Shown one piece after another: positions 8,076 to 64,000 of a DNA stretch of 64,000 bases (positions within the stretch are counted from its first letter, which is position 1; every line of letters begins with the position of its first letter). The notes under the pieces were generated by a model. That model saw only the letters and a program-made list of their open reading frames with translations. It made no database searches and had not been told where the DNA came from. Position numbers and translations under genes: made by a program. The DNA comes from Pseudovirgaria hyperparasitica (lineage: Eukaryota): the NCBI GenBank assembly GCA_010093815.1, contig ML996590.1, one strand, 5' to 3'.

Positions 8076-8106
8076 TTATTAGTTAAGGGCTACCCTTAAC
8101 TAATAA
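8076..8106. repeat. 31-bp palindrome (LINE copy 1, immediately before the ORF1 start)
   Basis: Same sequence as 3287-3317. Confidence 0.95.
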
Positions 8107-8354
8107 AAGGGGGTCGGCGTGTTAGTATTCTAGTAGCGTAGTCCGTGCCTCTATCTCCGTGAGGATTTTAAGAGGGTATATATATATCTTTACACGGCGA
8201 TAACGTCTTGGTTTCGACGCTGCACGTACGTGTATATAGTAGTAGTTAGTGTACTCGGTATACTCTATCGATTAAGGTGTGTATCTCGCTATATTACCCC
8301 GAATGGACTAAGTTAGCCTCTTAGGGATGTAAAAGAAGTTTTTATTTCTACTTC

Positions 8355-23703: not shown

Positions 23704-23734
23704 TTATTAGTTAAGGGCTACCCTTAACTAATAA
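23704..23734. repeat. 31-bp palindrome upstream of LINE ORF1
   Basis: Read directly; followed by CCATAGCG (RIP of CCATGGCG start context). Confidence 0.95.
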
Positions 23735-28480: not shown

Positions 28481-28511
28481 TTATTAGTTAAGGGCAGCCC
28501 TTAACTAATAA
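28481..28511. repeat. 31-bp palindrome at LINE ORF2 end
   Basis: Read directly; loop CAG. Confidence 0.95.
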
Positions 28512-36097: not shown

Positions 36098-39000
36098 GAA
36101 TCTATACTTAACCTTACCCTAACTACGGAATATATAAGCTATAGAGTATAATACTACCGCCGTAGTAAGACGTAGATAGACTCTAACTACGAGTATATAG
36201 AGACCGCGATAGATATATCTATATTTAATAAATAATAGAGGAGATAGCTCTAGAAAGATACTAACTAGAAGAAATATAGAGAAGACCTAGAATTAGTAAT
36301 TCTAGATCTCTCTATAGTTAACGTATCTAATATCCCGGCTATAGATAGAGCTATATAAGTCCTTCTTTAAGTCTTCTAAGACTTAAGAGATAAATATATA
36401 CTATATTAAATATATAAGCCCCTAGATATAAAGAGTATATCTTAAATATATAAAAGTAGATAGGAAGCCTAGAGACTATATATTCGTATATACTATATCT
36501 AGATAGCTAAGGCATAGAAGAAATAGAAAGAGATAATCTAATCTTATAATAGAACCCTCTATAATAAATAATATAAATACTAGTATATAATTACTAATAA
36601 ATATACACGCTAGGCTATAGAGCTATAGTATATAGTAAAGTAGGCTAAGAGCGTGGACGTGCCGACGCTACTACTACTAATACCTTCTCTAATATACTAG
36701 AGGAGAATATATACTATAAGTTCTAAAAAGATAGAGATTCTCTAAAAGATTATATTTCCCCCCCTAGAGCTAGTAGACCTATTAGATATTAATAATACTA
36801 TATATCTAGATATAGTTAATATCTCTATAGAGATTATAGAAGAGAATATACTTAATACTATTAAAGTACTTCCGAATAATAAAGTGCCTAGACTAGATAG
36901 AATACTAAATAGATATCTTAAATATACTATATAGGTAACTCTACTACTTATTAGTCTTATCTTCTAGATATATACTAAGAATAGATACTATCTCTAAAGC
37001 TTCTAGACTACTTATACTATTATACTTCTAAAGCTAGAGAAGAATTCTAACTCTCTAAAAGGATAGAGACTAATTACCCTTCTCTTCTATCTTAGTAAGA
37101 TATTTAAGACTATAATTATAAAGAAGATAAGTACTATAGTATAAGAATATAATCTTCTTCTAGTAAACTAGAAGATAAAGATAGAGAGCTCTCTAATTAC
37201 TACTATCTAATATATTCTTAAAGTTATTTAGACTATATAGAAGTAGAGATATATAGTAATATTACTCTCTCTTAATATAGCTAGTATATTTAATAAGGTA
37301 AACTATATAAGACTTATCTATAATCTATAGAAGAGATATATACCCGAATAGATTATAAAGTTTATATAGTTCTTCCTTACTAAAAGAATTACCTAGATAT
37401 ATATCTCTAGATATTAAAGTAAATATAAGAAGATAATATATAGTATTCTATAAGAAAGTACTATCTCTCTAATTCCCTTTCTCTTCTTTACTATAGACCT
37501 TCTATAGAGAATATAATATATAGAGATAGTAGAATATACTAATAATATATACCTTCTAGCTATTAATAATAATACTAGTTTAATATATAAATACCGTAAA
37601 TAAGACTATAAGAGGTATATCTAGTAGATAAAGCGCTATAGAGTAAAGTTAGCCCCTAAGAAATACTAACTTATATACTTTATTAACTACTATAGAAGAT
37701 AGACTACTAGAGAAGAAGAGTAATATTCTATAATAGATACTTTCTCTAAACTACTAACATAGAGTATATATATACTTAGTATTATAATTAATAATAAACT
37801 TAAATAGGGTCTATAGATTACTTATACTATATCTAGGGCTCTTAAGATAGAAGCTACTATATACTAGATTACGGCCTCTATATAGGGAACCGCCTAGAAT
37901 AAGATATACTAGCTATATATCTCTATAGTAAGACCCGCCTTTATATATAGATATAAGTACTAGTATATAGCCTTTATATAAGCTAGGTAAATAAAGCTTA
38001 AGTCTATATAGAACTATATACTCTATCTTATATTAGAAGTATATAAAGCTACTAATATAGTACTACTATAACACGAGATAAATATAATAAGTATATAGAA
38101 CTTCTACTAGATATAGAGAGTAATATACTTTACTAAATAATAAGTATAGAAACACGTAGAATATATAGAATATACCTTTACCACGCTATATATATAAGTT
38201 AGTATCTACTATTAAGTACTACTATATATAGACTAGACTTAAATATAATATAAGTATCTAATAGAGATAGACTTAAACTAAATTATATAAGAGATTAGAG
38301 ATAATCTAGATACCTCTCTAGACTAGTAGAACCCTTAGAAGCTTATACGGGCTATATAGTTATAGACCTAGAATAAATAGAAGAAAGTCCTCTAAATCTA
38401 TTAGATATTCTAATAGAATAGATATCTAGAATAGATTTAAGGACTATAGAAGAAACTAAGTAAATAGATATATAAAGGGCTTATAAAAGTCTAAGTATCT
38501 ATTCTTCTCTAAGCCTAAATAGAAGCTATAGAACTTCTATACTATCTATATTAGAGGGGTATCCTAGATATATCTTTATAGTATAAAGTATATAGCTAGA
38601 GAGATATAATATAGTACTATCTCTCGATATATCTAGACCTCTATATATAGAGATAGTTACTTATCTATATAATAAGAATCTCTAATATTATATATTAGCT
38701 TAATAAGTACCCTAAGAAGATCGCCTAGTAAATACTTATATATCTCTCTCTCTCTTAGTACTAATAGACCTAGATATATATACTAGAAGAGACTAGATAT
38801 ATACTAGATAGACCCTAGTATACGCCGGAAGAACCCTAGAAGAACTCTAATTATTAGTTAAGGGTAACCCTTAACTAATAACCCCTATACTATATATATA
38901 CTATCTAAGAATAAAATAATAGTACTATAGATTATAGGTCTATAGATATTTCTAATAACTATATACTTAAGATAATATAAAGATTTAATAAGATATAGTT

Positions 39001-39125
39001 ATAGAGAGAAGGAAGCTTTTCCTTTTATAAAGGTTTCTTCTTATATAATAGCTTAGACTAGAGAAGATATATACCTATAGAGTAAACTACTCTATCTAGT
39101 TATATAATATTATTATTATTATTAT
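36098..39125 (+). mobile_element. 5'-truncated Tad1-like LINE, copy 3
   Basis: Homologous to ~25730-28750; TSD TATAGAGTTATA (36086-36097/39126-39137); palindrome at 38851-38881; (ATT)n tail. Confidence 0.92.
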
Positions 39126-45710: not shown

Positions 45711-45715
45711 ATAGA

Positions 45716-48700
45716 TATAAGGATTATAGACGTAGGATAGTAGTCTAATAGGTCATAGGAGGATTCGGGAATATATTTAAAAGGGTAGTCTACTCTTCTA
45801 ACGAGGTTAATTTCTAAAGAGTAGGAATTAAGTATGTACGGCCTACTTATATAGTGGTCTCGCTTATTCTAGCTAGCTTAACCTAGGTCCACCTATCACG
45901 GACCGTACTAGACCATAGTAGTCTAGTTAAGTCTATCCTAGTATTAGCCCTAATAATATCCTTCTTCTTTTTATACTTTACTCTAAAGTACTTAGCTATA
46001 TATAAATCCGTAATTCTATAAGCGTTATATTTATACGCGTATCTAATTGAATCTATATAACGTTATCGATAGTCTTTATATTAGTAAACTTAAGCTCTAG
46101 TTTACTTTTATTTATACACGCGCTTATCCCTTACTTTATAGCTACTACCTTAGAGATAGCTCCGCGGGTTATATAACTACTATATTAACTAAGCTTATAT
46201 TTAGTTCTCTTATTCTAAATTTTCTTCTCTAGTATATCTACCTTACTCTTAAGATAAGTCGTTAATTTATATACTATCTCCTTTAGTTTAGATCCGTTCG
46301 GGTCTAGAGTAGTCTATTTTTATTAGAGCTAGTCCTATATAATCTATTCGCGTTATTACGGTTACTAATTTAGCTTCTTTAATCGCCTTTAAGACTAAAC
46401 GAGTATTCTACTCTTAGATCTCTAGCTAACGTGTATATATAGATATCTAATACTAGTCCTATTCCTAAGCCTACCTTCTTCTCTTATAAGACTCGCTCTA
46501 AAGAGATTACCTCTACCCCGGCTATACTAGCTAAAAAATCCACTTATTATAGTAGTATAAAGGCGCGCTCTAAGTTAGAGAAGAAGGTAGCTAAGGCTAC
46601 TACTACTATTACTACTAACGTAGCCACTAGTCGCTCTAATCTAGGTAATTCTAGTACTAGTATTACGGAAGAGATAGCTATAAAGCCTATCTATACCTAC
46701 TCGCGCCGTCTATCTACTCTACCTCCTTTAGAGGATAAAGAAGATCTTATTATAGACGATAATTAAGAGTTTACACCTTCGCCGTCTCGCTCTAAACGCC
46801 GTTCCTCTTTTCGGTCTAATATAGACTAACTTAGTTACTCTAGGTCCTTTTAGGACCTTAATATTTACTCTAAACCTAGCCCTAGTAATAATAAGGTCTA
46901 GATCGCCGAAGATACTAAATATAGTTACGGTTTACGCTATAGGAAAACGGCGAACTATAGTTTAATATACTTTAAGTATATTAAGACTTACGCTACTAGC
47001 TCTAAATATCTCTTCCGCTCTAACTCTAGTATTAGCTACTACTCTACTAACCGCGATAGATCTATACGCCTAATCTTTAAGCTCCCTATCTACTACTACT
47101 ACTATACCGTCCTTAGTAAAGTTTATCTTTAGATAAGTCTATTAGACTATTTTAGTCTAGGGTAATCTAAAGTTATCTATACTAATACGTTTTTAGGTTT
47201 CTATTTATATATAAGATATATATAACGATCTTCGCGTCCGCGAGACTCTCGGTAGTTCTAGCGGTTATCTAGCTTCTATATATAGGGAGTTTAGGGAGCG
47301 CTATAAGCTCTTTCTAGAGGTTATTAAAGTATAAGTTTAAAAACTATTAATTATTATTAACCTTAGCTTATAATTTTTAGTCGCTGCGAGATTCCTAGCG
47401 CTTAGGCTACCTATTCTAGGGAGTTAGTTTTAGCTACTAAGGCCGTAGAAGAGATTTATACTATTTCTTCCCGCCCGCCTCGTGCTACTAACGGGTCTTA
47501 TAAGAGATCTACTAGTTCTCCTTCTAAGTTACCTTATAAGAGGGTATATATTCTATTCTAGATTATTCTAGATCGTGTTAGCTAACTTTAGGTCTAGTCC
47601 CTCCGCTCTAGCGCTTAGTCGTTATCTTACTAGGCTCTAACTAAGCGCGTGGTTACTCTAGAGGATAAGGTCTCTAACCTCCGTCGCTCTATTACTTAGT
47701 TATTTTATTTACTATACTCTAAGAGTAATAATAAGATAGAGGAGTAGCTCTATGGCTCTATTTACTAGGGTTTCTATATAGTGTATATTAGCTCTATCTA
47801 CCTGGTTTCTATCCGTTTTAGTCCTTTTTAGACCGTTTAGATACCTATCTACTAGTTTTCTAGTAATTTAATTCTTAACTTAATAATATTATATACGTTC
47901 TTATTTATTCTATAACTATTAAATTTTAGATTCTAATTTCCTTTAAGTTACTTAAGTATAGGTATTATATATAAATTAGTTTATCTCTCTAAATTATATT
48001 AGAGTACCCGAACTAGTAGCCTAGTAGTTATTAGTTTAGATACTCTAACCTTTTATATTATATATCACGAGTTTAATTCCGTAGTAGGGTACCTTTTTAG
48101 TTTCTTAGTCCTATATTCTTCTTATGTATAATAGTCTATGTTAGTCTATTCTAGACTTCTCTATATTATTCTATTATAATATATTACGTAGCGTACCTAT
48201 AACGGTTATTTACGTTTCCTTCGCGTTTAGTAACCGTGCATCGCTTAAATTATAGGGCTACCTTATAGAGTTTTCCTAGTATACGTTTAGAATTTATAAT
48301 TCGACACTTTATTCTCTATAGTATCCTTCTTCTTTTTATAATGGCTCTAATAGCGCTAGGTTTACGGTAGTAACGTATTATCCTATAACCTCTATTTATA
48401 TATAGCTATCGCGGTACTTAAGATATATACCGTAGGTTCCTAGGTGTCCTTATCCTCGGTATAGTTCTTCTAATAGATTCGATACTTTTAGATACCGTTC
48501 TTATCGAGCCTATATTTAATAATATAGTCTACTTCGTACACGTCTAGTCTATCTTAGGGTATAATAGAGTATAATTACACGTTCATGCGTTTATATACGT
48601 TAGGTCGAAACCTTTTAAGTAATAAGACGTGGAATACGTTATAGACTTTTATATCATTTTCTAGGTTAAGCTCGTAGGCTCTTATACTAATATAACGTTT

Positions 48701-51700
48701 GATTCGGAAGGGACTAGCCATTTTATAATTAAGCTTTTTATTTACTCGTGATATTTATATATTATAGATATTAAGGAGGACTTCGTCTCTCTCCTCGTAC
48801 GCTTAATCTTTAACTAATCTATTATAGTACTTTATATACGACTTATTTACTTACTAGATTATTACGCGATAGTTACGTGCGGTTTTAAAGATTTTAATCG
48901 CTAGTTCCTACGCGTGGACGTTAACATCTATCGTTCGGTTGAACTAGACTATATAAGGTTCGAAATCTATCCTTAGACTACGTTCTAGGTTCGCCTAGAA
49001 GGGCGTAACACCTATTATACTATAATGACTATTATTATACGCGAATTCTACTATACTTAGTAGAGAGGCCTAGTTATCTTATTTAAAATTATAGAATATA
49101 CGAAGGTAGGCCTCGAGCGTTTAGTTCTATCGCTCTTTCTAACTATCTATTTATAGATAGAATACTATTAATATATTTCTATTTATACCGGCCATTTCAT
49201 AGAATAACGTCTAGAATTTAGACGTGAATATACTCTCTCGGTCTATAACGATTCTTTTTAGTATACTATAGACCTTAATAATCTTATTCTAGAATACTTA
49301 TACTAGTTCTTTTAATATAATCGTCTTCTATATAGGGACGTACCTAGATATCTTTATAAGTCTATCTACGATAATAAGAATTAAATTATAACTTATTCTA
49401 AGCATCTCGCTTAGAGGTAAGTTAACTATAAAATCTATAGTAATATCTTCCTATATAAAGAGGGGGACTAGTAGAGGCTATAAGTTCCTATATAGCTTAT
49501 ACCTAGGTGTCTTTATTCTTTAATAAATCGGATAAGTAGCTATCTATTCTTTAATGTACTTAGGTATATCTTTCTAAAAATAGTACTAATAAATCGAGCT
49601 TAGGGTGCGTATATACCCGAAATATTCTACTAGGTTAGTGTTATAGTATCGGCTAACTACGGTAAATCGTGTGTTACCCGTCGGTATATAGTACTTTCTA
49701 TTATAGTAGAGTAAGCCGTCCACGAAGGTCTACTTATAGTCTACTTCGGTCTATAATAATCTATCTTACTATATTTTACGTAACTTTAAAACTATCGGGT
49801 CTATCTTTTATAGATCCACGATTAACTAGGTAAGGTCTACTTAATATACACGCTAGGTACTATCGCCCTCTCTAATAGCGCCGATAAATAGCTCGCTAGA
49901 GACTTTAGTACCGTGTCTTTAGTTACTAGCTTTAGTCTTATAAATTTAATTACTAGTATTAGCGTTAGTATCTCGCTAATTATTAGATAACTTATTATCT
50001 AACCTCGTCCTTAAGAGTTAGGCCTATAGCTACTCTAGGACCCTATAGCTACTATAATTCTAGGCGCCTTCTTTATAGTTAGGTCTTCTTAATATTCTAT
50101 TAGCTAGGTTTATACTTCTAGGTCGATAGTAGATTATAAAGTAGAAATTTATAAGCTACTTAGCCTATTAAACCTATTAATGATTTAAAACCGTTATACT
50201 TATAAACCTCTTTAAGTTATAGTAATTAGTTAGTAACTTAACGTTATATATAGTACCTTTAAGATAATATCGCTACTACTTAAACGACTCTACTATTACT
50301 AGTAGCTCTTAGTTATAAATAGTATATCTAGTCTCGACGTCGGCTATCTTACGCGAGAAGAACGTAACTAGATACTATTAGACCTTTTTAGACTCTATTA
50401 GTCTAGGCTAGAAGAGTATACCCGAGATTATAAATCCTAATATATTAGTTTCAACGTGAATAGGTTTAGTTAGATCGAAGTACACTAGTAATAGAGCGGT
50501 TATAAATACTTCTTTAATCTTCTTAAAGGATATTCTTTTAACCTTAGTTAATTTAATAGGTTATAATTTAATATTATACTATTTCTATCTACTATAGACC
50601 GTAATAGATAAGTCGGTAGTAGTAGTATACGTATTAAGTAGTGCGGCTAAACGGGAGAAGTATTTAATAAATTTTTAGTAGTAGTTAGTAAAGCTAATAA
50701 AGACACGTATATCTCGAACGGATTTTAGTTTAGGCTAGTCCATAATAGTAGTAACTCTATCTCTCTCTATAGTTATACCTTAATTAGTAATAACGAAGCT
50801 AAGAAAGTTAATATAGTCCTAATGGAACTCGCATTTAGATAGCTTAATATATAGCTTATACTTTTCTAGCCTATCTAGGACTACACGTACGTGCTAGATA
50901 TACTCCTCCTCATTATCTAAGAAGATAAGGATATTATCTAGGTACACGATATATGTCGTGTTAAGTAGGCCTACTAGCGCGTTATTAATATATACTTAGA
51001 AGGTGCCTAGCGCGTTAGTTAGTCTAAAAGGGACTACGGTATACTTAAAGTATCTATAACGGGTCCTAAAAGCCGTTTTCTATTCATTACCTTCCTTAAT
51101 ATAAAGGTAATAGTAGGCGTTACGTAGATCGAGCTTAGTAAAGATCTTTATACGTCCTAGTCTATTAATAGACTCGGAGATAAGAGGTAGTAGATAACGA
51201 TTCTTTCGTATAATATTATTTAGGCTATAGTAGTTAATATATAGACGGAGGCTTCTATCCTTCTTCTTTATAAAGAGAATTAGAGCTCCGGCTAGAGATA
51301 TACTAGGCCTAATCTATTCTCGTGTAAGGTTCTTTTCGATGTATTCTCGAAGGGCTTATAACTTAGGTTCTAAAAGAGGGTAGATAGGTCTATATAGAGG
51401 TTACTAGCTATCTTTAAGATTAATAGTAAGGTCGGTAGATTAGTATTAAGGTAGTTTAGAGGAATTAATCGCTAACATAATATATTAGTATATTTTATAC
51501 TAATATAGTAGGTTTTCGTCTACTTTAATACTAAGCTTACTATTTTACGTAAGTAAGAGTATATAGATAGTAGAGATCGCCTTCTTATAATCTTTCTAGA
51601 ATTATTTATTATTAATAAGCTATACTAGTTCCTATTAAGGTAGATTTATACGCTAGCTAGCTATCTTCTTAAGAAAGTCTAGTTTTAGATTATATTTCTT

Positions 51701-53726
51701 AAGCTATAGTATACCTAGAATTATGTTAAAGGGACTATCTACCACGATAAAGGTTAAGTAGTAGAGTTTCTATTTCCCTCCGCTATCCTAGATATCGTAT
51801 TTAATAGTATAGGTACTATATAACTTAATAGGACCGTCGATACCATGGAATATAGTACCTATTAGAGCTTAGATGTCGGTATTAAGTTCTCGTGCTCGTT
51901 AGATCGATATAACGTTAGTAGCCGACCTACTATTAAGTATTATAGTCTAATATTATCCACGAGGGACCTCGATAGGTCTAGCCTATAGTTCGATATACTA
52001 TTTAGTAGATTACCCCTCTATTATGGTCGCGTCTATAAGTCGCGAGGGTTTCTTATAGGCTATTAGTTTTTTATATTCTATACTAGGTAGTTAGGCGTGA
52101 TGTATCCTAGCTACTAGCACTTATAGTATATAACTAGTTAGTTAGTTATATTAGTACTTAGTAGCTTCCCTAAATAGTACTTAGGTACTATATAGTCTAT
52201 TCTACTATAGATATAGTAAGTAACTTTAGGTTATTTATATAAGTCGGTTCTTATATCTCGATATATCGATTAGTAGGGAGATCCACGATATAATCCGCGT
52301 GGTTTTAAATTTAAGGCATAGTAGTGGCCTTATAACGTCCCGCGAGATCTATTACTAAATTAGTTTTAGTTAGATGATTTTACGTTAGATTAGATTATTA
52401 GAGATAGTCGTGTACTAGCGCGGCGTTAATTATTTATTATATACTAGTATCGCTCCGCGAGGTTTATAAGAGCTTAGAGGTCTATAGAGATTATTATTAT
52501 AAGATCGAGATGGTTCTTTATATTTAGGGCGAGGGACCGTTTAAAGTCGTCGTACTATTAAATTATATAATCTTCTTTAGCTTCTCTCTAGAGGGGCCGA
52601 AGGTATTTAAGGAGTTATAATAGTAACTAATTATCTCGTTATCGAGTCTCGAAGATATAGCCCTAGGTCTAGTCGCGTTATTTAGCCCTATTACTAAAAT
52701 ATTAGAGGAGAAATTTAGTAAACGTATTCTAGTTATAGGTATCCTTAGAATATTTAATTCGGTATACTATCTAACGTTCTAAAGGCGTTGGGTTAAGGTA
52801 GTTCTAGACGAATCTAATTTTATTACTATTATTCGTGAATAGATAGAAGAATCGGCTATATTAGTAAGTCTATACGTGGAAACTCTTTCTACTTTTACTA
52901 TCGAAGTAAGGTGGTTTCTTAGGTCGGGGTAATTAGGATAGTAGTAGACTAGAATAGATCGTTTTAGTTAGTATAGGTCTATATAAATATAGATTAGTCG
53001 TTACTAGAACTAAAGCGTATAATATAGCTTTAAGTCTCGTAGTACGTCCTTAAGCTTCGTTAAGTTCGCGTAGTTATTACTTAAGTTAAATCTATTATTA
53101 CCTCTCTTCGTGTAGTCTAGTATATATATTATTATAAGATATAGTTAACGTTAGGCGATTCTAATAGATTAACTTATTAACGTTAATAAGGTCTAGCCTT
53201 ATATTAAGGTTAGGTCTAGTATAGTTTAAACTAGACCAAGATAGAGTATAATAGACTCTATCCTTATATTCTATAATATCTTCTATAGTTATATAGAATA
53301 TCGTACGAGTTATCGGTGTAATAGTCTATAAGATATAGTTATTAGTGGGGGTAGTTATAGATAGACTATTCTCCTCGTTTAGGTTAGGAGAAGGTCTACT
53401 ATAAGAGGCGGTGCCACGAGTGTTATAACGAGTGGTTAGAGCTATTTCTATAAACTACCGTCGTGCTATATAAAGAGGAATTAAAATATAAGGATTATAG
53501 ATATAGAATAGTAGTCTAATAGGTTATAGGAGGATTCGGGAATATATTTAAAAGGGTAGTCTACTCTTCTAATAAGGTTAATTCCTAAAGAGTAGGAATT
53601 AAGTATATGCGGCCTACTTATATAGTGGTCTCGCTTATTCTAGCTGGCTTAACCTAGGTCCACCTATCACGGACCGTACTAGACCATAGTGGTCTAGTTA
53701 AGTCCATCCTAGGGTCAGCCCTAACA
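45716..53726 (-). mobile_element. Ty3/Gypsy family B, copy 2, uninterrupted (8011 bp)
   Basis: 240-bp LTRs 45716-45955 and 53487-53726; TSD ATAGA (45711-45715/53727-53731); colinear with copy 1 minus the LINE. Confidence 0.95.
46443..47747 (+). pseudogene. Antisense four-exon accessory gene in Gypsy B copy 2
   Basis: Colinear with 19693-20997 (offset 26750), with the same splice signals. Confidence 0.72.
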
Positions 53727-53731
53727 ATAGA

Positions 53732-54640
53732 ATATTAATAGACTAGCTACTAGATATAAGAGTAGTAGATAGTATATAGCTATCTATAGTTTAACTTATT
53801 ATTATATCTCTACTAGTAGTATTTATATATCTTAAACTCTAGTCTACTAAGTTTAAGAATACTTTTATTAAGAATAGTTATTTTAGACTTAAGAGGTTTA
53901 AATATTCCTATAATATTAATACTTCTAGTCTTATTCTATTCTATAAGAAGCTAATCTTCTAATCTCTTATTATACTTCTAGATAAGAGATAGAATACTAT
54001 TAAGTATCTTCTATATATCTATAACTAGTTTAGATATATTAGAGATATAAAAGTAATAGATCTCTAATACCTCCGTAGAGTATGGTAGCTAGATATACTT
54101 AGTAAAGTATATATAATACTTATTATCTACTTTAAGGGCTCTAATATTATCTCTAAAGTTAAATATCTTCTTAAGTCTTACTACTAGGTTTATATAGAAT
54201 ATACTAACTAATATCTTATTTTTTCTAGCTATATTCTAGTAATACTTAAAGTAGACTCTATAGGGGGTAGCTCTATTAATTATCTATTTCTTTTATTTAA
54301 CTAGTAGAGCTATACCTTTAGCTATTATAAAGTTCTTCTTTAAGGATACCGCGGCTTTAAATATCTTTATTATAGAGGGTATATACTTATAATACTTAGA
54401 GTCTTCTTCCTCTTTCTTCTACTACTACTACTAGATTTATTTTAGACTATAAGACTTTAGTAACTAATAGATATTATAAGTATATTTTTAGTAGGTATTA
54501 AGGGTCTACTAATAAGATATATCTATAGATAGACTTTACTAAGAGAGATATAATAGATACTAATAAAGTCTAAGTATAAGTAGGCGGCGAATATATCTCT
54601 ATAGTAGATAGATAATATATTTCTAATCTAGAAGGTTTAC
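53732..54640 (-). pseudogene. Dioxygenase-like gene, 5' part (start not defined)
   Basis: De-RIP reading EFKMYKYH...NYGWLRTIYYSHIQQLV joins the 3' part across the ATAGA TSD. Confidence 0.55.
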
Positions 54641-54732
54641 CTTATAGAGGTAATTTTACTATAGATATTACTTATATTTACTTTAGTAATAGTAGTTCTA
54701 GAGATAGAGATAATATACTTATCTTCTTAATC

Positions 54733-54742
54733 NNNNNNNNNN
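54733..54742. other. Assembly gap (10 N)
   Basis: N run. Confidence 1.
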
Positions 54743-55116
54743 GAGAGAGAACTAAATACATAGAGAGACCGTTCCTTATATATTCCTCCTTATATATTCT
54801 AGATCCTTCTCTCTATTAATAATAGGAATCTTCTAGACCTCTAGACGTACGTATACGTTCTATAGCTCTAGTAGTTCCCTTAGAATAGAATAGGGTAGAG
54901 TAGAACTCTATAGAACTTATAGACTCTATAGTAGAATCTTATAGAACTCTATAGAAGTTCGTGTTTCTAAAGATCTCTAGAAGTTTCTAGAAGGTTCTAG
55001 AAACTTCTATAAGAGTATAGAGTATTTATATATATAAGTAGATAATATTAGTAAGGTCGATTACTAATATTAAGCTATTCCTAATAAGGAAATACCTTAT
55101 ATAAACTTATTAGACA
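54743..55116. repeat. LTR-like segment with internal ~10-bp TAGAAnnTTC tandem units, ending in ...AGACA
   Basis: Terminal CA and short tandem repeats; no second copy in the window. Confidence 0.35.
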
Positions 55117-56199
55117 TAGTAGAGATAGAGTTTATAATTTTACTATAGATATTACTTATACTTACGTTAGTAATAGTAGCTCCGGAGATAGAGATAATAT
55201 ACTTATCTTCTTAATCTATAAAAACTACTCTATAGATCTATAGACTATTCTACTAACCTAAGACTACTAGCTAATAGAAATAATAAGTTCTATTCTATTA
55301 TAGAAAAGTAATTTATTTTATTAACTAGGGTAGTTTTAGAGTTATAGAAGGGAGGGTCCTCTTATATTATAATCTCTAGCTATAGTAGTATTAATATTAG
55401 AACTCTAGAGATATACTTTAATTTCTTATTCTCTCTATTCTTAACTAATTTAAGACTATAGAGGTATATTTAACTAGTCTCTTACTTATATCTATAGCTA
55501 TATTTATAAAAGTACTACTAGCTTTTCTATAAAGTTCTATATCTACTATAGTAGCCTAAGAGTAGATTAGAATAACTAGCCTTCTATATTAGAGAGATCT
55601 TTTTACTAGTTCTATAGAATTATATTTTTAGTCTTTAGAATATATAAGTTAGTATATCTTTCTTAATAAATTATCTTATAGACTTCTTTTAGAATAGTAG
55701 ATTTAATCTTTACTTTACTATATTCTATTATAGCTTCTATCTTCTAGAATATATTAACTATACTACTTAAAAGTTATTCTATAAGACTAGTAATATAATA
55801 AAGATTATTAAATATATCTATAATATAATTCTACCGTTTCTATAGATTCTAAATAGTAAGAATATAGTTAATAGTAGAGGCGTTTACTTCTATAATATCT
55901 ACTAGTAGATCTTAAGAGATAGTAGATAGTCTTAAGACTATAAGGGTAGTTAAAGGCCCTACTTTAGTACTTATAACCCTTTACTATAATTATATCTATC
56001 TTATTTAAACTTATTAATCTTATAATTCTTTATAAATAGATATCTTCTTTTTTAGTAGAGCTATTACTATTATTAGTTTCTATAAGAAGATATAGAGATA
56101 TAAAAGGAAGTTAGTATAAGAAGAGTATTAGAGAGGTTAAGAAGGTATAAAGAGAAGAGAGTTCTATACTTCTTATATATCTTGTCTTATACTTTATTA

Positions 56200-56960
56200 A
56201 ATACTAGGTATATAATAAATTTTATAAATAGACTTTATTAATAGCTATATATCTATATATATATTAAATCTATAAATAAATATATACTAGATATATAGAA
56301 AATCTATAAATAAATATATACTAGGCGCTTAGCAAAATCTATAAATAGATAGACGCTAGGTATATCTCTATCTCTTAGTTATAAGGTTTTCTATAAATAT
56401 CTTTCTTTTATAAACTTTCTCTCTCTTTTCTTCTTTTCTTTATTAGCTTTAATAGAGTCTTATATAAGTATAGTATAAAGTAAGCGTTTATAGAAAGACT
56501 TTAAATTTATATATATCTCTCTTTATATCTTTCTTACTTTAATAGTAAGGTTTATTATTTATTATAATAATAGAGTTTATCTTTACTATAATAGTAGAGT
56601 TTATCTCTTTAGATAAATAGATATAGAGTATATAGAGAATCTATGAATAAATATATACTAGGTATATCTTTATTCTTATAAGACTTTCTATAAGTATCTT
56701 CTTCTTCTAGACTTTCTCTCTCTATTCTTTTTCTTATTAGTTTTCTATAGAATTATAGAGGTCTCTAATAGATAGACTTTAATTATATAACCGGCTTATA
56801 TATAGTAGATAGACTATAAATATACTCTTACTTATATTTTTCTTTACGTCTTTCTTAGTTTAATACTTATATTTTTCTTTATATCTTTCTTAGTTTAATA
56901 ATAAGGCTCGCTATTTCTTAGTAATAATAGAGTTTATCGCCCCTTTTTAATAATAGAGCT
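56200..56960. repeat. Degenerate tandem and dispersed repeats (AAATCTATAAATAAATATATACTAG units; longer duplicated blocks) downstream of the family F integrase
   Basis: Repeated units visible at ~56266, 56300, 56335 and 56638. Confidence 0.55.
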
Positions 56961-57099
56961 TATTATTATAAGACTACTTCTTAAAAGTATCTTTCTCTTC
57001 CCTTTTAAAAAATTTAAAAAAAAACTTCTATTCTATAGAAGAAGATATTAGTCTTAGAGAAGTATATATACTCTTCTCTATTAAAGTTTTATAGAGTAG

Positions 57100-58752
57100 A
57101 AATTACTACTTCTACTTATACTTATATACTATTATTATAGTATTCCATAGGCTATCTATAGTATTCTTTCTTATTACTACTCTTATTATTTTTATAGATA
57201 ATTCTTTTAATAGATAGCTAGAAGAACTTAGTTTACTACTAACTATTTATATTACGTATAAAGTACTTCTTTAGTCTATAGCTTAGAAATATTCCTTTAA
57301 GTCTAGTTCTATCTAGTTCTATAAGCTAGTAGATATAGTTAAATACTAACTAGATTCTATATAGCCCTCTCTAATACTACCTTAGTTTCTATTCTATATT
57401 CTTCTATTATTATAAATTATATAGAAGAATAATAGTATTAATCTATAATAGTTCTTAATAGAGATAATAATTATTATTCTATATCTGTCTTAATTCTTTA
57501 TAAGTCTATATAGTATAGATATATACTTCTTAGAGATCCTTAGATCTTCTCTTTAGTTATCTAGCTTAAAGAGTAAGTAAGTCTAATATTAATTATATCT
57601 TATTCTAAGGGAGTATTTAGAATAATTTAAATTCGACCTCTATAGATATAATTAGTTTGTAGCTAAGTATAAGATATATAGTACTATATCTAATACTAGT
57701 ACGAGTTATAATTCTATCTATCTATATAACTATATAGAGGTATTTAGACTAGTTCTTATATCTACTATTAGTTATCTTTATAAGGGTATTAGTAAGTAGT
57801 ATAGAACTTCTTTTAATAATTCTATTTATATAGAGATTATATATAGATATAACCTTCTAATAAATTCTATAGAGTTTAAGAAGTTCCTCTATAGTATCTA
57901 TATTCTCTTTTCTACTATTATAAGTAATCTTAGAAATAATTCTATATCTATAAATAATATTTTTAAAGAGAAACTTTATAATAATAGTAGACGTAGCTAC
58001 TATATCTACCTCTATCTTAGTCTATCTACTTAGCTACTCCCTTATAGATACTACCTTACTATATTCTATAGAAGGTAGTAGCGTTATTATATCTAGGTAT
58101 ATTCTTTACTAGAGAATAGATATTACTATATAGTAGAGCCTTTTATTAAGACTACTAAGAAGTTTACTCTACTACTAATATTTATTATAAGTCTTTATAT
58201 ATTATTATATATCTTTATATATCTCTATCTATTAATACTTATCTTTAATTCTTCTAAGAGTCCCTTTACTATCTCTATAATCTATCTTATTATAAGTAGT
58301 AGTAATTATATATATCCTAGTATTCGGGTTATTAACTACTTATATATATTAGTAATATCTATCTTCTCTCTACTAGAGTATTTAGTCTTATATAAGAAAT
58401 TTAAGATAGTTAGTTATAAAGGCCTTATATATATAATTAGTTAGATTAGTTAGTCTCTTAAGTATAGTAAGATACTTTATAATTCTTTACTACTTATTAC
58501 TATATTTATTAGTTAGAGATAACTTAATAGTAGTATAGTTAAGTATCTCTATTAAGTAATCCTTCTATAGATAGACTTAATTAATAATATTCCTAGTATA
58601 TCTATATATAGAGCTATATCTATAGACTTATCTAGATTAAAAGTAGAGATATCTAGTAGTTCTTCTCTCTTATATATCTACAAGATACTATTAGTAACTA
58701 TATTATACTTTCTAGATATACATCTAATTATAAAATTCTATAGTTAAATCTA
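57100..58752 (-). mobile_element. Ty3/Gypsy family F RNaseH/integrase fragment
   Basis: De-RIP reading ITCDGGKEN...ISAYNPRANGIVERG...LTDALAK...WSKHLHAVxWADR. Confidence 0.7.
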
Positions 58753-58762
58753 NNNNNNNNNN
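58753..58762. other. Assembly gap (10 N)
   Basis: N run. Confidence 1.
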
Positions 58763-59313
58763 ATATAACTAGGTAGAGTAGTTTACTCTATAGATATATA
58801 CCTTCTCTAGTCTAAGCTATTATATAAGAAGAAACCTTTATAAAAGGAAAAACTCTCTTCTTTCTATAACTATATCTTATTAAATCTCTACGTTATCTTA
58901 AGTATATAGCTATTAGAAATATCTATAGATCTATAGTCTATAGTATAGTTATTTTACCCTTAGATAGTATATATAGAGTACGTGGGTTATTAGTTAAGGG
59001 CTATTCTTAACTAATAATTAGGGTTCTTCTAGGGTTCTTCTAGTGTATACTAGGGCTTATCTAGTATATATCTAGCTTCTTCTAGTATATATATCTAGAT
59101 CTACTAGTACTAAGAGAGTAGAAGATATATTAGTATCTACTAGATAATCTCCTTAGGGTACTTATTAAGCTAGTATATAATATTAGAGGTCTTTATTATA
59201 TAGATAAGTATTTATCTTTATATATAGAGGTTTATATATATTATAAGATAGTACTATATTATATCTCTTTAGCTATATACTTTATATTATAGAGACGCGT
59301 TATAGATATCTCT
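58763..59313 (-). mobile_element. Short 3' fragment of the LINE, copy 4
   Basis: Homologous to ~3065-3615; degenerate palindrome at 58987-59017. Confidence 0.85.
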
Positions 59314-59314
59314 C

Positions 59315-62300
59315 TTATTAAGATTATTAATAAGTTAACTTAAATTAGTTATAAAGTATACTATTTTCTATCTATATATATAGTTAGTTGTATTTATATA
59401 TCCGACCGGTTCGCTACTACCTATAGTAATTATATATAATATATACTACTACTATAGCTATAATAAGGTACCTAAATTTAAGAAAATCTACTACTATTCT
59501 TAGTAGCTTTACACGCGACGCTTAGCTAGATATAGATTTATATCTTTATAGATACTACGGCGCGGTTAACCTACTACTAAGCCGATATTTATAAGTTCCT
59601 TACTAGACACGATATACTTTATAGTTTCTTTAGAATACTCTTATTACTTAGCTAGTAGCTTAGTAACCTTATTATCTTAATCCTTATTCTAGTTAACTTA
59701 TAGTATCTTACTAGTATATAGTATACTAGTTAGTTTATATAAAGCTATTACAGCCTTACCTTATATACTATTAGAGTTATTATCTAGAAAAACTAGTTTT
59801 ATAACCTTTTAGTATATCTTATAATATAATAGTCTATTTAGTAGTAGTTTAGTAAGGTAAGATTCATACTATTTATAACTATAAGTAGCTATAGTAGTAT
59901 CTTCGAGTCTAAAGCTATAATAGTAGTAGATATTCTAGTGGTATTTAACTATTTACTTTAGTATTAACTCCTTAGTATAAAACTTATACTTAGCGTTATA
60001 GATCTAATTAGAGTACTTCTATATATACTTACTAATTTCGTTATTAAATAATCTTATAGTGTATTTACCGCATTTATAAATTAACTTTATAGACTTAAGG
60101 AGGTTAACTACCTCTTCTAGGAGCCCTAGTTACTTAATTAGCGTACCTATCTAGTATAAGTAATATTCTAGTTCCCTATAGTTAGCTAGAGAACGAGCTA
60201 ACTTACTTAGACTAGATAGAAGACCTAGATAGTTAACTAAATTAGGCTACTTAGACTTTTATTAAAATAACTAAGATAATATTTTTAAGGTAGTTAAGGT
60301 TATCTTAAGAACTAGGTAGGGCTATACTATAGTAAAATTACTATTAATTTCTTTCTTATCTAATAAGATAATAAGTCGTTCCTTTATAAACTTAGATTAG
60401 ATAATATAAGGGTCCTTCTTAATAGATAGTTTTTTAAATACTAGACTTTCTATAACTACTCTATTAAGGCTCTACGTCTTTTTAGTAGTAATTACTTTCT
60501 ACTAAAAGTTCTAGAATAATATAATATATATATCTAGATTACTCTTAACTTTAAAGGAGTCTTTAGTCGTTAAAATAGTATACTTAAATATAGATTACTT
60601 ATATCTACTTTTAACTATATTAATACTTTTATTACTAATAAGTTTATAAAGAGTTTTAGCTTACTTAAGGAGTATTATATATAGATTATTTCTAGTAGCT
60701 ATTAGAATAGACGTTAAAAATTATACCTAAGTAGCTATCGTGGTTCTCTAGTTAACTATATTTATCTTAATTAACGAGGTTATATTATATAGCTATTAGT
60801 AGATATTAGTAAGATAGATATCGGCCTAGATTAACTAGTTAATAATTCTTTTAACTACGTTAAGGTTATATATATAGATTTCTAATATAGTTACTTTCTT
60901 ATTATTTAGCTAATCTTTCTATAGAATTATAATTAGATTAAATCTTTATATACTAGTTTTAAAATTAATTACACGACTTAATTTAGGTATGAAAAGTAAT
61001 AGGTTACTAATATTTAGTACTAAGCTACCCGAGTTCGTTTACTATCTACTTAACTAACTACGTGGCGAGCTAAAGTCTAAATTATTAGTAGTAGTTAGTA
61101 ATATAAGTAATATAGTATATATATAATCTAATTATCGCGATCGGGCTAAAATTAGATTATCTACTAGACTCTTTATAGTCGGTTATATAGTACTTATAAT
61201 CTTTAATAGTTACTTAGCTAAGATACCGCCGTTATTATCTTCGTATCTATATACTAGGTTAATATCTAAGGGTACCGCCTAATTATAATAGTTGGTTTTA
61301 TTTACTATAAGTAGCTTATCTTTAATTACCTAGGGCTTAGAATAAGTCTTCTCTAAAATCTACTAATAATATAGTAGTAATATTACTACTCTACTAAGTA
61401 TAAATTAATAAAATATAATTATAACTTTATTATTTAAGACGCTAGGAGCTCCGCACGGTAGATATCCTTTCTAAAACTATTCTTCTTTTAAGAAGACGGC
61501 TAGCTAGTAGATACTAACCTTACCCTTCTTTATAATCTATTATTCTATTACTATAATAATTAGTAACTTTACTTAGTCGGATAGTTAGACGTTTATAGAT
61601 AGCTAAGTTATATAGTTCTCTATAATATTAATAGAATAATCTATATAAAATAGCTATAAATTATATTTTAAAAGGTACTATTATTTAGTTATAGAGAAAT
61701 TATCTACTACTAGTCTATTACTAGAGATCTATACGGGTAGAGCTAACGATAAAGGGTATTCTATTACTATATATTCTAGAAGAATTAGTAGAAAAGCTTT
61801 TAATAAGCTAGGAAAATTCTTAGAATCTATCTAGTCTACTATTACGTCGTATAGATCTATATAGAATAGTTAGTTAGCTAGTTTAATATTTACTCGCGTC
61901 TAAATCTTTTCTATAGACTAATAGTAGTGCTTTTTATCTACCTTTAGATATAGATATAGAAGGATACTAGTTAGTTTAGATTAAGTATAACTATTATAAG
62001 TCTACTAAATTAATATACTAGGGCTTATAAGGATAAAGCTAGTTATATATAGTAATTAGTTAATATTATAGAATAGTTATAGATTAGTAACTATAAATAG
62101 TAGACTATATAGTTAGCTTAACTATAGTACTTATTTTTAGTTAATAGATCTAGATCTAGTACTAACCTTTAAGTAAATAATATAGAAAAGTACTTAATAG
62201 TTATATATCTATAAAATACTTAGTAAATATATATATTATAACGTAGCTCGTTATAATAGATATTAATAGCTCTCTATCTATAATAGCTAGAGGCGGATAG

Positions 62301-64000
62301 ATATTATAACTTTAAGTAGTTATTAATCTAGTTAGACTTCTAGTAGACTATTTCTATAAGCTTATTTAAGGTTATATTCTTTAACTAAGTCTAATAGAAG
62401 TATACTTCGCCGTATCTACTAACCGAATTCTAGACCGTTGCTATATACTGTTACCTAGTATTTAATAGTTAGTTTATAATTATATCTAATTTAAATATAG
62501 CGCTAATTATAGATAGTTATCGCTATCTACTTATTTATAATAGTAAGTAGGTATATATCTTCTCTATAGTCGAAGTAGTTAAGTTCCTTTAGAAATGGTT
62601 CTAACTACTTAATAGATATTACTAGGTGTATTTTCTATATCCCTGGTAGCTCTAGTTCGTATATCTAATAGTCTACAACGCGTTTTATTAGTACTAGCCC
62701 GACTTACTATTAGCTAAGCTTATAATAGATGCCTAGAATCTTATACCCTTTATATAGTTAAATATAGACCTAGTTACTAGGAGCGAGATCTAGTAGAGAT
62801 ATATAGCGTATATCGAAACGCTCCTTTATACGCGTCTAGGTAAATACTAGTACGTCTAACGCCTCTTTCTAGTTTATATTATACTTTTAGATGTAATTAT
62901 TTACTTCTATTAAACTAGTCTCCTTAAATAGAGCGCCTTTAGATAGTTAGAAGCTATATAATATCTTATTTAGAGATTTTTATATTAAGGAGTTTATTAA
63001 ATTATTTATAAGTTACTAGACTAATAGAACATAGATTATCTAGTCTATGGCCGGTAATATTAAAATAAGAAAACATAGGGTAATCTCTACCGTTTAGTTT
63101 GTACGTTCGCTTTAACTATTACTCTACTTATAATAGATAGTTAATACTAGGATTTTAGTATTAATGCCCTCTAAAATTCCTTTCTAAAATAATAATAGGA
63201 ATTTTTAGTCCCTATTATAAATAATTATAGCTAGAACTCTCTATTCTAGTAGTATACTCCTTCTAAATATAGTTATCTATTATATAGTAGTCTAGTCGTT
63301 TTAGCCTAGAATAAGATAGATTCGCTTAGTAAACTTATCTATTACTATAAGTAGTATATTAAGTCTATTCTATATTAGTAGTCTAATAATAAAATCTATT
63401 ATAACTATATAAAATAGTATTAGTAGTAACTAGACTAGCTTTAATTCGCTATATAGTATATATCTTTATATCTAGTAAGTTTTATAGATAGAATAGTACT
63501 AAATATAGTACTTTAGACGCTTTATAAGCTAATAAATAAAGTAGCCTAAGCGAATTTAATCGTATACTTAGAAAAAACCTATATAAGTACTTTTATTATA
63601 GAATTAAGCGAAAATGTCTCTATTAAGTAATTTTAGTATATAGATCTAATATTATCTATTAAGCTAATTAATATAATAAATTATACTATTAGTAAATTAA
63701 AAAGAAATCGATCGGATAATATTATTATCCTAGTCTACTACTATAGCTTTTATACTTATCTAGTACTTATTATTATTATATATATTAGCTAGCTACCTTA
63801 TAAACTTTAGATTAATTTTAACTATTATAATATTAAATATTAAGAGCTCCTTAAGAATGTCTAAGTCTCTTAGCTAGACTCTATTATAGATCTAATAGAG
63901 CTAAGAAAGAGCGTTAGGTACTACGTGCTCTTTATCTAGTCTATATTTAAGCTCTAGGTTAAACTATAATAGATACTATAAGGCCCGTACTAGTTAGAGA
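59315..64000 (-). mobile_element. Ty3/Gypsy family E: integrase plus chromodomain-like region plus long in-frame C-terminal extension
   Basis: De-RIP reading VAMDFIIGLP, DRDRKF, KLHKGYKIPG..KLSQQ.VGP, KIHPVISIKQLEP (~62590-62640). The same frame continues to ~59315. Confidence 0.8.

What the first reader, a model, noticed from the sequence alone, without database searches (positions are those of the whole stretch)
59812..60080. Cryptic C3HC4 RING finger and zinc fingers in the Gypsy E extension
Seen: TAC/TAT codons at 59928-59812 are spaced exactly x2-x11-x1-x2-x2-x11-x2, with a T-Y-S-Y core (de-RIP TCGH). Upstream are Y-K-C-G-K...Y-x3-Y and Y-K-F-Y...YH patterns, with one intact TGC. Known: C-x2-C-x(9-39)-C-x-H-x2-C-x2-C-x(4-48)-C-x2-C defines RING-HC E3 ligases. 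Inferred: a retrotransposon-encoded ubiquitin-ligase module, potentially acting on host silencing or defence proteins.
Basis: partly seen in the sequence, partly recalled or inferred. Interest (0 to 1): 0.8.

Follow-up and report, generated by a model that had tools for sequence, protein, structure and literature searches.

The report
RIP-mutated RING finger beside a Gypsy element
A run of tyrosine codons in a mutation-scrambled fungal repeat is the fossil of a real RING zinc finger, as an unmutated relative in another fungus shows, but it lies in its own dead gene next to a Gypsy retrotransposon, not in an extension of that element's polymerase.

Summary
The Tyr spacing exists exactly as described (minus strand, 59928-59812). 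On its own it is at chance level: a RING pattern with Tyr as wildcard matches 7 times in the six frames of the window, against 7.1 +/- 3.2 in shuffles.

An exhaustive phmmer search found one relative. It is a 108-aa Pseudovirgaria hyperparasitica protein (P0005) that reads TCGHEWCEPC...YCKTC where the window reads TYSYK*YESY...YYKIY. Of 88 aligned codons, 78 are identical or explained by C>T/G>A (RIP) changes. The next-best of 127,474 offsets scores 32. P0005 passes Pfam zf-C3HC4 and matches solved RING E3s such as RNF4 and TRAF2.

So ligands 3-8 of a C3HC4 RING are confirmed as former Cys/His. Ligands 1-2 and the two upstream "zinc fingers" remain untested.

The RING sits about 110 codons from the end of a roughly 780-codon ORF relic (61899-59560). 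About 450 bp with no coding-frame signal separates that relic from the verified Ty3/Gypsy integrase. The region is multi-copy in the source organism. Whether the ORF belongs to Gypsy E, to a neighbouring element or to a captured gene is unresolved. This copy is dead.

The parts
59812..59928 (-). RIP-mutated C3HC4 RING finger. The eight ligand codons are all TAY: codons 51, 54, 66, 68, 71, 74, 86 and 89, counted from 60078.
   Evidence: Spacing. Ligands 3-8 align with C, H, C, C, C, C of P0005. P0005 passes Pfam zf-C3HC4 and matches solved RING E3s. Ligands 1-2 are inferred only.
59629..59892 (-). 88-codon stretch homologous to P0005 (XP_033602934.1): the second half of the RING, an acidic stretch and an AT-hook-like basic motif.
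   Evidence: phmmer against 1.84 billion representatives gave a single hit, E=6e-4, covering 59889..59644. BLASTP pair: 24/63 identical. 32 codons identical, 46 RIP-explainable and 10 neither, of 88. The next-best of 127,474 offsets scores 32.
59626..59649 (-). Remnant of the AT-hook-like motif. P0005 reads KRRGRPRG; the window reads K**EYSKE.
   Evidence: All eight codons are identical or RIP-explainable. The AT-hook core R-G-R-P is recalled, not tested against a profile.
59929..60078 (-). Upstream Tyr-rich stretch with C2H2-like spacings. It includes the intact Cys codon TGC (60072-60070) and the intact His codon CAC (59940-59938).
   Evidence: In most other genomic copies these two codons read TAC, so Cys and His are the older state there. 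Zinc-finger identity is not tested and no homolog covers this part.
59560..61899 (-). RIP-pseudogenised ORF relic of about 780 codons that carries the RING near its C-terminus. It has 62 in-frame stops (35 TAG, 27 TAA) and no ATG left.
   Evidence: Stops per frame are 62 against 128 and 118, chi-square p=4e-6. This is the strongest frame asymmetry among 4112 windows of 780 codons. The end coincides with the stop of P0005 (about 59568). No PDB or library homolog was found for the first roughly 640 codons.
61900..62349 (-). Spacer without coding-frame signal between the Gypsy pol and the RING ORF. It may be an LTR or an intergenic stretch.
   Evidence: Stops per 150 codons are 18, 21 and 15, and the pol/RING frame has the most. 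No repeat partner in the window.
62578..63417 (-). Ty3/Gypsy integrase core of element 'E', in the same strand and the same frame as the RING ORF.
   Evidence: phmmer against PDB: Ty3 Gag-Pol polyprotein 7q5b_A residues 1168-1449, E=1e-6. tblastn finds three other integrase-like relics in the window.
62350..62568 (-). Chromodomain-like tail of pol, judged by eye only.
   Evidence: Read by eye from the translation. No PDB match at E<=10 and no Pfam match. Not verified.
58763..59295 (-). 3'-terminal fragment of a Tad-like LINE that follows the RING ORF and abuts a 10-N scaffold gap (58753-58762).
   Evidence: blastn to the 3' ends of the LINE copies at 3048-8350, 28749-23463 and 39125-36100. APE- and RT-like motifs were read by eye (motifs recalled) in the translation of the least mutated copy. 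N runs.

Best explanation
Region 59812-59928 is the RIP-destroyed remnant of a genuine C3HC4 (RING-HC) zinc finger. RIP turns TGY (Cys) and CAY (His) into TAY (Tyr), so all eight metal ligands now read Tyr. It also turned a Trp and several Gln/Arg codons into stops.

The RING lay about 110 residues from the C-terminus of a protein of roughly 780 residues. After the RING came an acidic stretch and an AT-hook-like basic motif. The gene is a separate ORF relic that starts about 450 bp downstream of a Ty3/Gypsy integrase, on the same strand, and it belongs to a multi-copy repeat of this genome. So it was most probably carried by a mobile element.

Shown here: the homology and the RIP-type nature of the differences; the RING identity of the homolog; the ORF relic; the integrase; the multi-copy state.

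Inferred: RING ligands 1-2; that the intact protein was a DNA- or chromatin-tethered RING E3 ubiquitin ligase; that a transposable element carried it. The copy in this window is dead.
For: (1) An exhaustive phmmer search with the 883-aa read-through of 61950-59302 found one protein at E<=1e-3 among 1.84 billion representatives. It is P0005, E=6e-4, and it covers 59889-59644.

(2) Ungapped over 88 codons, 32 are identical, 46 differ only in ways that C>T/G>A changes produce (C/H>Y, W/Q/R>stop, G>S/E, P>S/L, E>K, D>N, A>V/I, M>I) and 10 are neither. The best other offset in the window scores 32 of 88 (mean 13.8, sd 3.4, 127,474 offsets). Shuffled P0005 at the locus reaches at most 27 in 5000 shuffles.

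(3) P0005 hits Pfam zf-C3HC4 with E=1.1e-4 and 22.4 bits, cut-off 21, profile positions 15-40 of 40. Its best PDB matches are RING E3s: RNF4 7e-5, TRAF2 0.004, then TRAF3, TRIM56, RING2 and BRE1. All of them match over the second half of their RING. UniRef names it a C3HC4 RING-type protein.

(4) Frame asymmetry in stops over 61899-59560 is 62 against 128 and 118, p=4e-6, the top of 4112 windows.

(5) Contigs of two runs of the same sample gave 1236 and 694 laid pieces on 59300-62300. At single sites in the RING region, 9-13 distinct contigs carry another letter. In run X1, 374 of 425 variable places are transitions. The window's intact TGC and CAC read TAC in most other copies.

(6) The integrase is verified against Ty3 Gag-Pol, E=1e-6.
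Against: - The Tyr pattern alone is what chance gives.
- Pfam finds nothing in the window's own translation.
- Only one homolog exists. It is an orphan: no relatives. Its gene model begins inside the RING, so ligands 1-2 have no outside support.
- The library E-value (6e-4) is modest. The strength comes from my own RIP-compatibility statistic.
- The first roughly 640 codons of the ORF match nothing.
- No LTR pair, TIR or target-site duplication ties the ORF to any element.
- The runs laid may be the sample the window was assembled from. Contig depth is no copy number.
Confidence: 0.8

Rival explanations
1. The RING ORF is an additional ORF of Gypsy element E itself, lying between pol and the 3' LTR. 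This is, but as a separate ORF rather than a Pol extension. The retrotransposon would then encode its own RING protein.
For: - Same strand and same reading frame as the integrase. RIP makes no indels, but the chance of a shared frame is 1 in 3.
- Only about 450 bp lies between the two.
- Both occur once in the window.
- The whole of 59300-62300, up to the pol tail, is covered by many contigs.
- Additional ORFs in Ty3/Gypsy elements are known in plants and planarians (passages of PMC9289625).
- No retroelement domain was detected downstream that would make the ORF the start of another element.
Against: - No LTR was identified, and the 5' end of E is outside the window.
- Sequence downstream is cut after about 265 bp by a LINE fragment and a scaffold gap.
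- No intact relative with pol plus RING was found.
Confidence: 0.35
2. The ORF is the first ORF (gag-like) of a second retroelement lying in tandem behind E, with the 450-bp spacer as a shared LTR. Its Cys/His-rich, basic C-terminus would play the nucleocapsid role.
For: - Position directly behind a pol end plus an LTR-sized spacer.
- The Cys/His cluster followed by a basic motif at the C-terminus resembles the layout of nucleocapsid regions. That layout is recalled knowledge.
- What follows the ORF is lost to a LINE fragment and a gap.
Against: - The Cys/His cluster is a RING by profile, not a CCHC knuckle.
- 780 codons is long for a gag (recalled).
- No protease, RT or integrase was detected downstream in any frame, by the method that found E's integrase.
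- My own 'D-S-G protease' reading of FLDNNSNS fell, because the homolog reads LPEDDSNN there.
Confidence: 0.15
3. The ORF is a host gene, or a fragment of one, that was duplicated or captured by some other repeat and then RIPed. It is not an adaptive module of a retrotransposon, and its place beside Gypsy E is mere neighbourhood in a repeat-rich AT isochore.
For: - The only relative is annotated as an ordinary single-copy hypothetical gene on a 2.1-Mb contig of another Dothideomycete.
- The window is a mosaic of nested, unrelated repeats.
- No TE hallmark was found in the ORF.
Against: - Many distinct variants exist in the genome.
- The relative's gene model is truncated inside the RING, as expected for a relic rather than a working host gene.
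- It is an orphan with no orthologs in 5.8 billion clusters by word search.
Confidence: 0.25
4. The Tyr spacing is a chance product of RIP-biased composition and there never was a RING.
For: The regex frequency equals the shuffle expectation. There are 11 other equally Tyr-rich loci. No Pfam hit on the window's translation.
Against: 78 of 88 codons are compatible with P0005, against at most 32 anywhere else. P0005 is a RING by Pfam and by PDB matches.
Confidence: 0.03
5. The RING is a continuous C-terminal extension of the Gypsy E Pol polyprotein (rve+chromo+RING).
For: Same strand and frame across 3.8 kb.
Against: - 21 in-frame stops in the 150 codons of 62349-61900, the highest of the three frames. 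The RING ORF has 7.9% in-frame stops and pol 10.2%.
- More than 700 codons lie between the pol tail and the RING.
- The chromodomain is not verified.
Confidence: 0.07

Closest known systems
XP_033602934.1 / KAF2760483.1, hypothetical protein EJ05DRAFT_484208 of Pseudovirgaria hyperparasitica (P0005; UniRef 'Zinc finger C3HC4 RING-type domain-containing protein')
   Same: Colinear over 88 residues: second half of the RING, acidic stretch, AT-hook-like KRRGRPRG. Its stop lies close to the end of the window's ORF relic.
   Different: It is not RIP-mutated, is single-copy, and is only 108 aa, with the model starting at an internal Met inside the RING. Its genomic surroundings could not be read with these tools.
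RING-HC E3 ubiquitin ligases with solved structures (RNF4, TRAF2/3, TRIM56, RING2, BRE1)
   Same: The CGH-x-[F/W]-C-x2-C ... C-x2-C half of the cross-brace aligns with P0005 and with Pfam zf-C3HC4.
   Different: Only the RING half matches. No other domain of these proteins is present. The window's copy has Tyr at every ligand position and cannot bind zinc. E3 activity is untested.
Additional ORFs of Ty3/Gypsy LTR retrotransposons (plant aORFs; the orchid Gypsy elements with an AlkB-type 2-ODD ORF; giant planarian Gypsy elements)
   Same: An extra ORF with a host-like domain next to gag-pol, possibly kept through many rounds of copying (passages of PMC9289625 seen).
   Different: None of the passages I saw describes a RING. 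Membership of the RING ORF in the Gypsy element is not shown here. This host is a fungus that destroys its repeats by RIP.
RAG1 (Transib-type transposase fused to a RING E3)
   Same: A RING ubiquitin-ligase domain physically joined to a mobile-element protein (passage of PMC10799480).
   Different: RAG1 is a domesticated host-TE fusion with an N-terminal RING and a DDE transposase. Here no transposase is seen, and the RING is near the C-terminus of a multi-copy dead ORF.

Membership tests
RING-HC (C3HC4) zinc finger, Pfam PF00097 | Ligands 3-8: C-x-H-x2-C-x2-C-x(4-48)-C-x2-C | tested here: met
   The window has Y-x-Y-x2-Y-x2-Y-x11-Y-x2-Y. The aligned unmutated homolog reads C-G-H-E-W-C-E-P-C-x11-C-K-T-C at the same columns, and every difference is a TGY/CAY>TAY change.
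RING-HC (C3HC4) zinc finger, Pfam PF00097 | Ligands 1-2: C-x2-C lying 9-39 residues before ligand 3 | tested here: inconclusive
   The window has Y-x2-Y 11 residues upstream (codons 51 and 54), but the homolog's model starts after them. The 40 listed variant sites do not include them, and 453 sites were not shown.
RING-HC (C3HC4) zinc finger, Pfam PF00097 | Profile match at the curated cut-off | tested here: inconclusive
   The window's own translation has no Pfam hit at E<=1. The homolog P0005 scores 22.4 bits against a cut-off of 21, over profile positions 15-40 of 40.
RING E3 ubiquitin ligase (function) | E2 binding and ubiquitin transfer | not testable with these tools
The window's copy has 62 in-frame stops and no Cys ligands.
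Ty3/Gypsy LTR retrotransposon (element E) | Integrase core related to Ty3 | tested here: met
   7q5b_A Ty3 Gag-Pol residues 1168-1449, E=1e-6, corresponding to window 63417-62578.
Ty3/Gypsy LTR retrotransposon (element E) | Chromodomain after the integrase (chromovirus) | tested here: inconclusive
   Seen by eye only. No PDB match at E<=10 and no Pfam match.
Ty3/Gypsy LTR retrotransposon (element E) | RING ORF enclosed by the element's LTR pair | not testable with these tools
   The 5' part of E lies beyond base 64000. No direct repeat was found around the ORF. A LINE fragment and an N gap cut the 3' side.
Pol extension (rve+chromo+RING in one polyprotein) | Unbroken coding frame from pol to the RING | tested here: not met
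   62349-61900 has 21 stops in 150 codons in the pol frame, the most of the three frames.
Classical C2H2 zinc fingers (upstream patterns) | C-x2-4-C-x12-H-x3-5-H with a hydrophobic core (recalled consensus) | tested here: inconclusive
   Codons 31/34/47/51 fit x2-x12-x3, with an intact His at 47. Codons 3/6/18/22 give x2-x11-x3, with an intact Cys at 3. No homolog covers them. With Tyr at 10%, such four-position patterns are expected by chance.
Retroviral-type aspartic protease (my own early idea for FLDNNSNS) | D-S/T-G active-site triad | tested here: not met
   The homolog reads L-P-E-D-D-S-N-N at these columns.
AT-hook | R-G-R-P core flanked by basic residues (recalled) | tested here: inconclusive
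   P0005 has KRRGRPRG and the window codons are RIP-compatible with it. No profile test was run.

The most novel reading that the evidence does not exclude
A multi-copy Ty3/Gypsy lineage (or another mobile element) of Dothideomycete fungi carried its own accessory gene for a chromatin-tethered RING-HC E3 ubiquitin ligase: RING plus AT-hook, placed 3' of pol. This would resemble the RING E3s that some large DNA viruses use against host silencing. It would be the first RING ligase encoded by an LTR retrotransposon. RIP has since killed it in this genome, and one unmutated relic survives in Pseudovirgaria hyperparasitica.
Probability: 0.25. Interest if true: 0.75.

Novelty: new member of a known kind. 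Interest (0 to 1): 0.5.

Why it matters
- It shows that protein domains can be read out of DNA that RIP has reduced to about 25% G+C. Cys and His both collapse to Tyr, and a codon-wise test of RIP compatibility against an unmutated relative recovers the homology where Pfam sees nothing.
- Biologically, a multi-copy ORF with a RING and an AT-hook next to a Gypsy pol raises the possibility that a fungal mobile element carried a ubiquitin-ligase accessory gene. Two literature searches and the passages of two papers that I read turned up no description of this.
- If the ORF proves to lie inside the LTR pair, it would add a new kind of host-interaction module to LTR retrotransposons.
- If it does not, this is one more RIP-killed repeated gene.

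Tried and rejected
- Pfam hmmscan on X-for-stop translations: six frames of 54000-64000 and 63 overlapping 300-aa pieces of the minus strand. There were no relevant hits, not even for the integrase, so Pfam is blind to this degree of RIP. One sub-threshold DUF6560 hit was ignored.
- blastn of 59000-61000 against the window, and purine/pyrimidine-collapsed blastn of 59300-62400: no second copy of the RING region in the window.
- Word-based protein search with the 1566-aa read-through: nothing. AT-rich words probably crowd out relatives.
- Word searches with P0005, 'longer' and 'near': only P0005 itself.
- JGI metagenome scan with P0005: 102 pattern matches, none a relative.
- ESM Atlas with P0005: only generic RING clusters below 0.9, so leads only.
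- PDB phmmer of the whole ORF relic, of the three minus frames of 58762-56061 and of the chromodomain-like tail: no hits.
- Collapsed-alphabet Smith-Waterman search for LTR or TIR partners around the ORF: within the shuffle range.
- My by-eye readings of 'RT motifs' at 58800-59200 and of a 'D-S-G protease' at 59790 were both wrong. The first is the 3' end of a LINE and the second aligns to LPEDDSNN.
- A weak integrase-like motif at 58228-58178 (E=3.5) is not significant.
- No whole genome is held for this window, and earlier findings of the scan were empty.
- Literature searches listed no paper on a RING encoded by an LTR retrotransposon. I read only listings and the passages.
Full report
SETTING. 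The window is an AT-rich mosaic of nested repeats, with G+C between 0.18 and 0.40. Every frame holds about 10% Tyr, about 10% stops and under 0.6% each of Cys and His. This is the signature of repeat-induced point mutation (RIP). By established knowledge, RIP changes C to T and G to A, mostly at CpA/TpG, so TGY (Cys) and CAY (His) both become TAY (Tyr). The only ORFs of 120 or more codons in 64 kb are three short ones.

THE OBSERVATION. On the minus strand, in the frame whose codons start at 63999-3k, bases 60078-59812 read YKCGKYTIRLFNNEISKYI*KYSN*IYNAKYKFYTKELILK*IVKYH*NIYYYYSFRLEDTTIATYSYK*YESYLTKLLLNRLLYYKIY. Five in-frame stops lie in the stretch.

IS THE PATTERN MORE THAN CHANCE? By itself, no.
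- A RING-HC regular expression with Tyr allowed at every ligand position has 7 matching starts in the six frames, two of them at this locus. Residue-shuffled frames give 7.14 +/- 3.18 (100 shuffles).
- The local density of Y+C+H (21 of 89) is in the top 0.4% of windows, but 11 other loci reach 22 or more.
- Only the exact spacing is unique to this locus.

WHAT DECIDES IT. I read the frame through with X at stops (61950-59302, 883 residues) and ran it with phmmer against 1.84 billion representative proteins. One protein came back at E<=1e-3: P0005, 108 aa, E=6e-4, aligned to 59889-59644.

P0005 is XP_033602934.1 of Pseudovirgaria hyperparasitica. It is a singleton cluster that UniRef calls a C3HC4 RING-type protein. 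Where the window reads IATYSYK*YESYLTKLLLNRLLYYKIY*KVIKLVFLDNNSNSI*GKAVIALYKLTS, P0005 reads MATCGHEWCEPCLTELLPNGPLYCKTCKKVVKLVLPEDDSNNAQGEAAVAFHEPTS.

I then asked, codon by codon, whether the P0005 residue can be turned into the window's codon by C>T and G>A changes alone.
- Of 88 ungapped positions, 32 are identical, 46 are RIP-explainable and 10 are neither.
- The same test at all 127,474 other offsets of both strands gives a mean of 13.8 (sd 3.4) and a maximum of 32.
- P0005 shuffled 5000 times at the true locus reaches at most 27.

So the homology is beyond doubt, and the direction of the differences is that of RIP acting on the window's copy.

P0005 itself hits Pfam zf-C3HC4 at 22.4 bits (cut-off 21) over profile positions 15-40 of 40. 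In the PDB it matches RNF4 (7e-5), TRAF2 (0.004), TRAF3, TRIM56, RING2, BRE1 and TRIM21, always over the second half of their RING. Hence window codons 66, 68, 71, 74, 86 and 89 were C, H, C, C, C, C. The stop at codon 70 was Trp. Codon 85 is a true Tyr.

Ligands 1 and 2 (codons 51 and 54) have the right spacing, one residue shorter than the Pfam consensus loop. They have no outside support, because the P0005 gene model starts at an internal Met (the window's ATA) inside the RING.

OTHER COPIES. Contigs of two runs of one sample were laid at 80% or higher likeness. They gave 1236 and 694 pieces on 59300-62300, with 9-13 distinct contigs carrying another letter at single sites inside the RING region. 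In X1, 374 of 425 variable places are transitions; in X2, 408 of 464. Only 40 of 493 variable sites were printed. Among those 40, the window's intact TGC (codon 3) and CAC (codon 47) read TAC in most other copies. This fits Cys and His as the older states there. None of the eight RING codons is among the 40 listed sites, so most copies probably also carry TAY there. The sample may be the one the window was assembled from, and contig depth is not a copy number.

THE GENE AROUND THE RING. Over 61899-59560 (780 codons) the RING frame has 62 stops, against 128 and 118 in the other two frames (chi-square p=4e-6). This is the strongest frame asymmetry among 4112 windows of that size on both strands. 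All 62 in-frame stops are TAG or TAA, and no ATG survives. The signal ends about where P0005 ends (about 59568).

After the RING come an acidic stretch and, in P0005, KRRGRPRG, an AT-hook-like motif with which the window's codons are RIP-compatible. The first roughly 640 codons match nothing in the protein library or the PDB.

THE NEIGHBOURS. Upstream on the same strand and in the same frame, 63417-62578 matches the integrase of the Ty3 Gag-Pol polyprotein (7q5b_A residues 1168-1449, E=1e-6). Three other integrase relics lie elsewhere in the window.

Between the pol tail (about 62350) and the ORF start (about 61900) there is no frame signal, and the pol frame has the most stops (21 in 150 codons). 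The RING is therefore not in a continuous Pol extension.

Downstream, 265 bp after the ORF, lies the 3' end of a Tad-like LINE (58763-59295). Longer copies of that LINE are at 3048-8350, 23463-28749 and 36100-39125. The fragment abuts a run of 10 N (58753-58762), so what follows the ORF in the original element is not in the window. In other copies the sequence beyond 59315 differs (loose ends) and is absent from this window. No retroelement domain is detectable in 58762-56061. No LTR or TIR partner was found.

INTERPRETATION. The best-supported reading is a RIP-killed, multi-copy gene for a protein of about 780 residues, with a C-terminal RING-HC finger followed by an AT-hook. By analogy with solved RING E3s it would have recruited an E2 and, through the AT-hook, sat on AT-rich DNA. 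Both of these steps are inferred.

Its multi-copy state and its place 450 bp behind a Gypsy pol suggest that it was carried by a mobile element. My estimates for which element:
- an additional ORF of Gypsy E: about 0.35;
- a captured or unrelated repeated gene: about 0.25;
- a gag-like first ORF of a tandem neighbour: about 0.15;
- a true Pol extension: about 0.07.

Additional ORFs in Ty3/Gypsy elements are known (passages of PMC9289625), and a RING joined to a transposase is known from RAG1 (passage of PMC10799480). My searches (listings only, plus those passages) showed no RING encoded by an LTR retrotransposon. Supplements were not consulted.

VERDICT. The RING inference is supported for six of the eight ligands. 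The 'Gypsy Pol extension' and the proposed function are not shown. Two of my own by-eye readings, an RT and a D-S-G protease, were refuted along the way. That is a warning against motif-spotting in RIPed sequence without an outside homolog.

Noticed in passing
3048-8350 (-), 23463-28749 (+ in the window, opposite orientation to the first), 36100-39125, 58763-59295: A Tad-like LINE family. The least mutated copy (G+C about 0.39) still shows endonuclease-like (GDFNL..) and RT-like motifs in translation. The three longer copies are 73-75% identical to one another, and the fragment beside the RING ORF is 88% identical to the copy at 38573-39105.
   Followed up: partly
45715-53729 and 18966-32279: Two copies (about 93% identical) of an 8-kb LTR element with LTRs of about 240 bp (18966-19203, 32042-32279, 45715-45953, 53487-53729). 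The second copy is split by the 5.3-kb LINE at 23459-28748. At 8 kb it is long for a Gypsy-type element, and its internal layout was not resolved.
   Followed up: partly
54733-54742 and 58753-58762: Two runs of 10 N, either scaffold gaps or withheld stretches. The second sits at the end of the LINE fragment, so adjacency of 58752 and 58763 is not assured.
   Followed up: yes
P0005 (XP_033602934.1), residues 1-27: The public gene model of the P. hyperparasitica relative starts at a Met inside the RING, after ligands 1-2. It is probably a truncated model or a relic of a longer ORF.
   Followed up: partly
58178-58228 (-): IEIYKDI**YIKTYNKY resembles the zinc-finger region upstream of the integrase core in another Gypsy relic of the window (1448-915). 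The match has E=3.5 and is not significant.
   Followed up: partly
about 18800-21130 (-): The second strongest stop-codon frame asymmetry in the window (59 against 113 and 122 stops in 780 codons). It lies on the minus strand inside the 8-kb LTR element and suggests a long ORF relic there.
   Followed up: no
55901-56800 (-), and 56174-56325 / 56510-56662: A sub-threshold Pfam DUF6560 hit (E=6.7e-4, 20.3 bits against a cut-off of 27.8) in a Lys/Arg/Glu-rich, locally repeated stretch. It is probably compositional.
   Followed up: no
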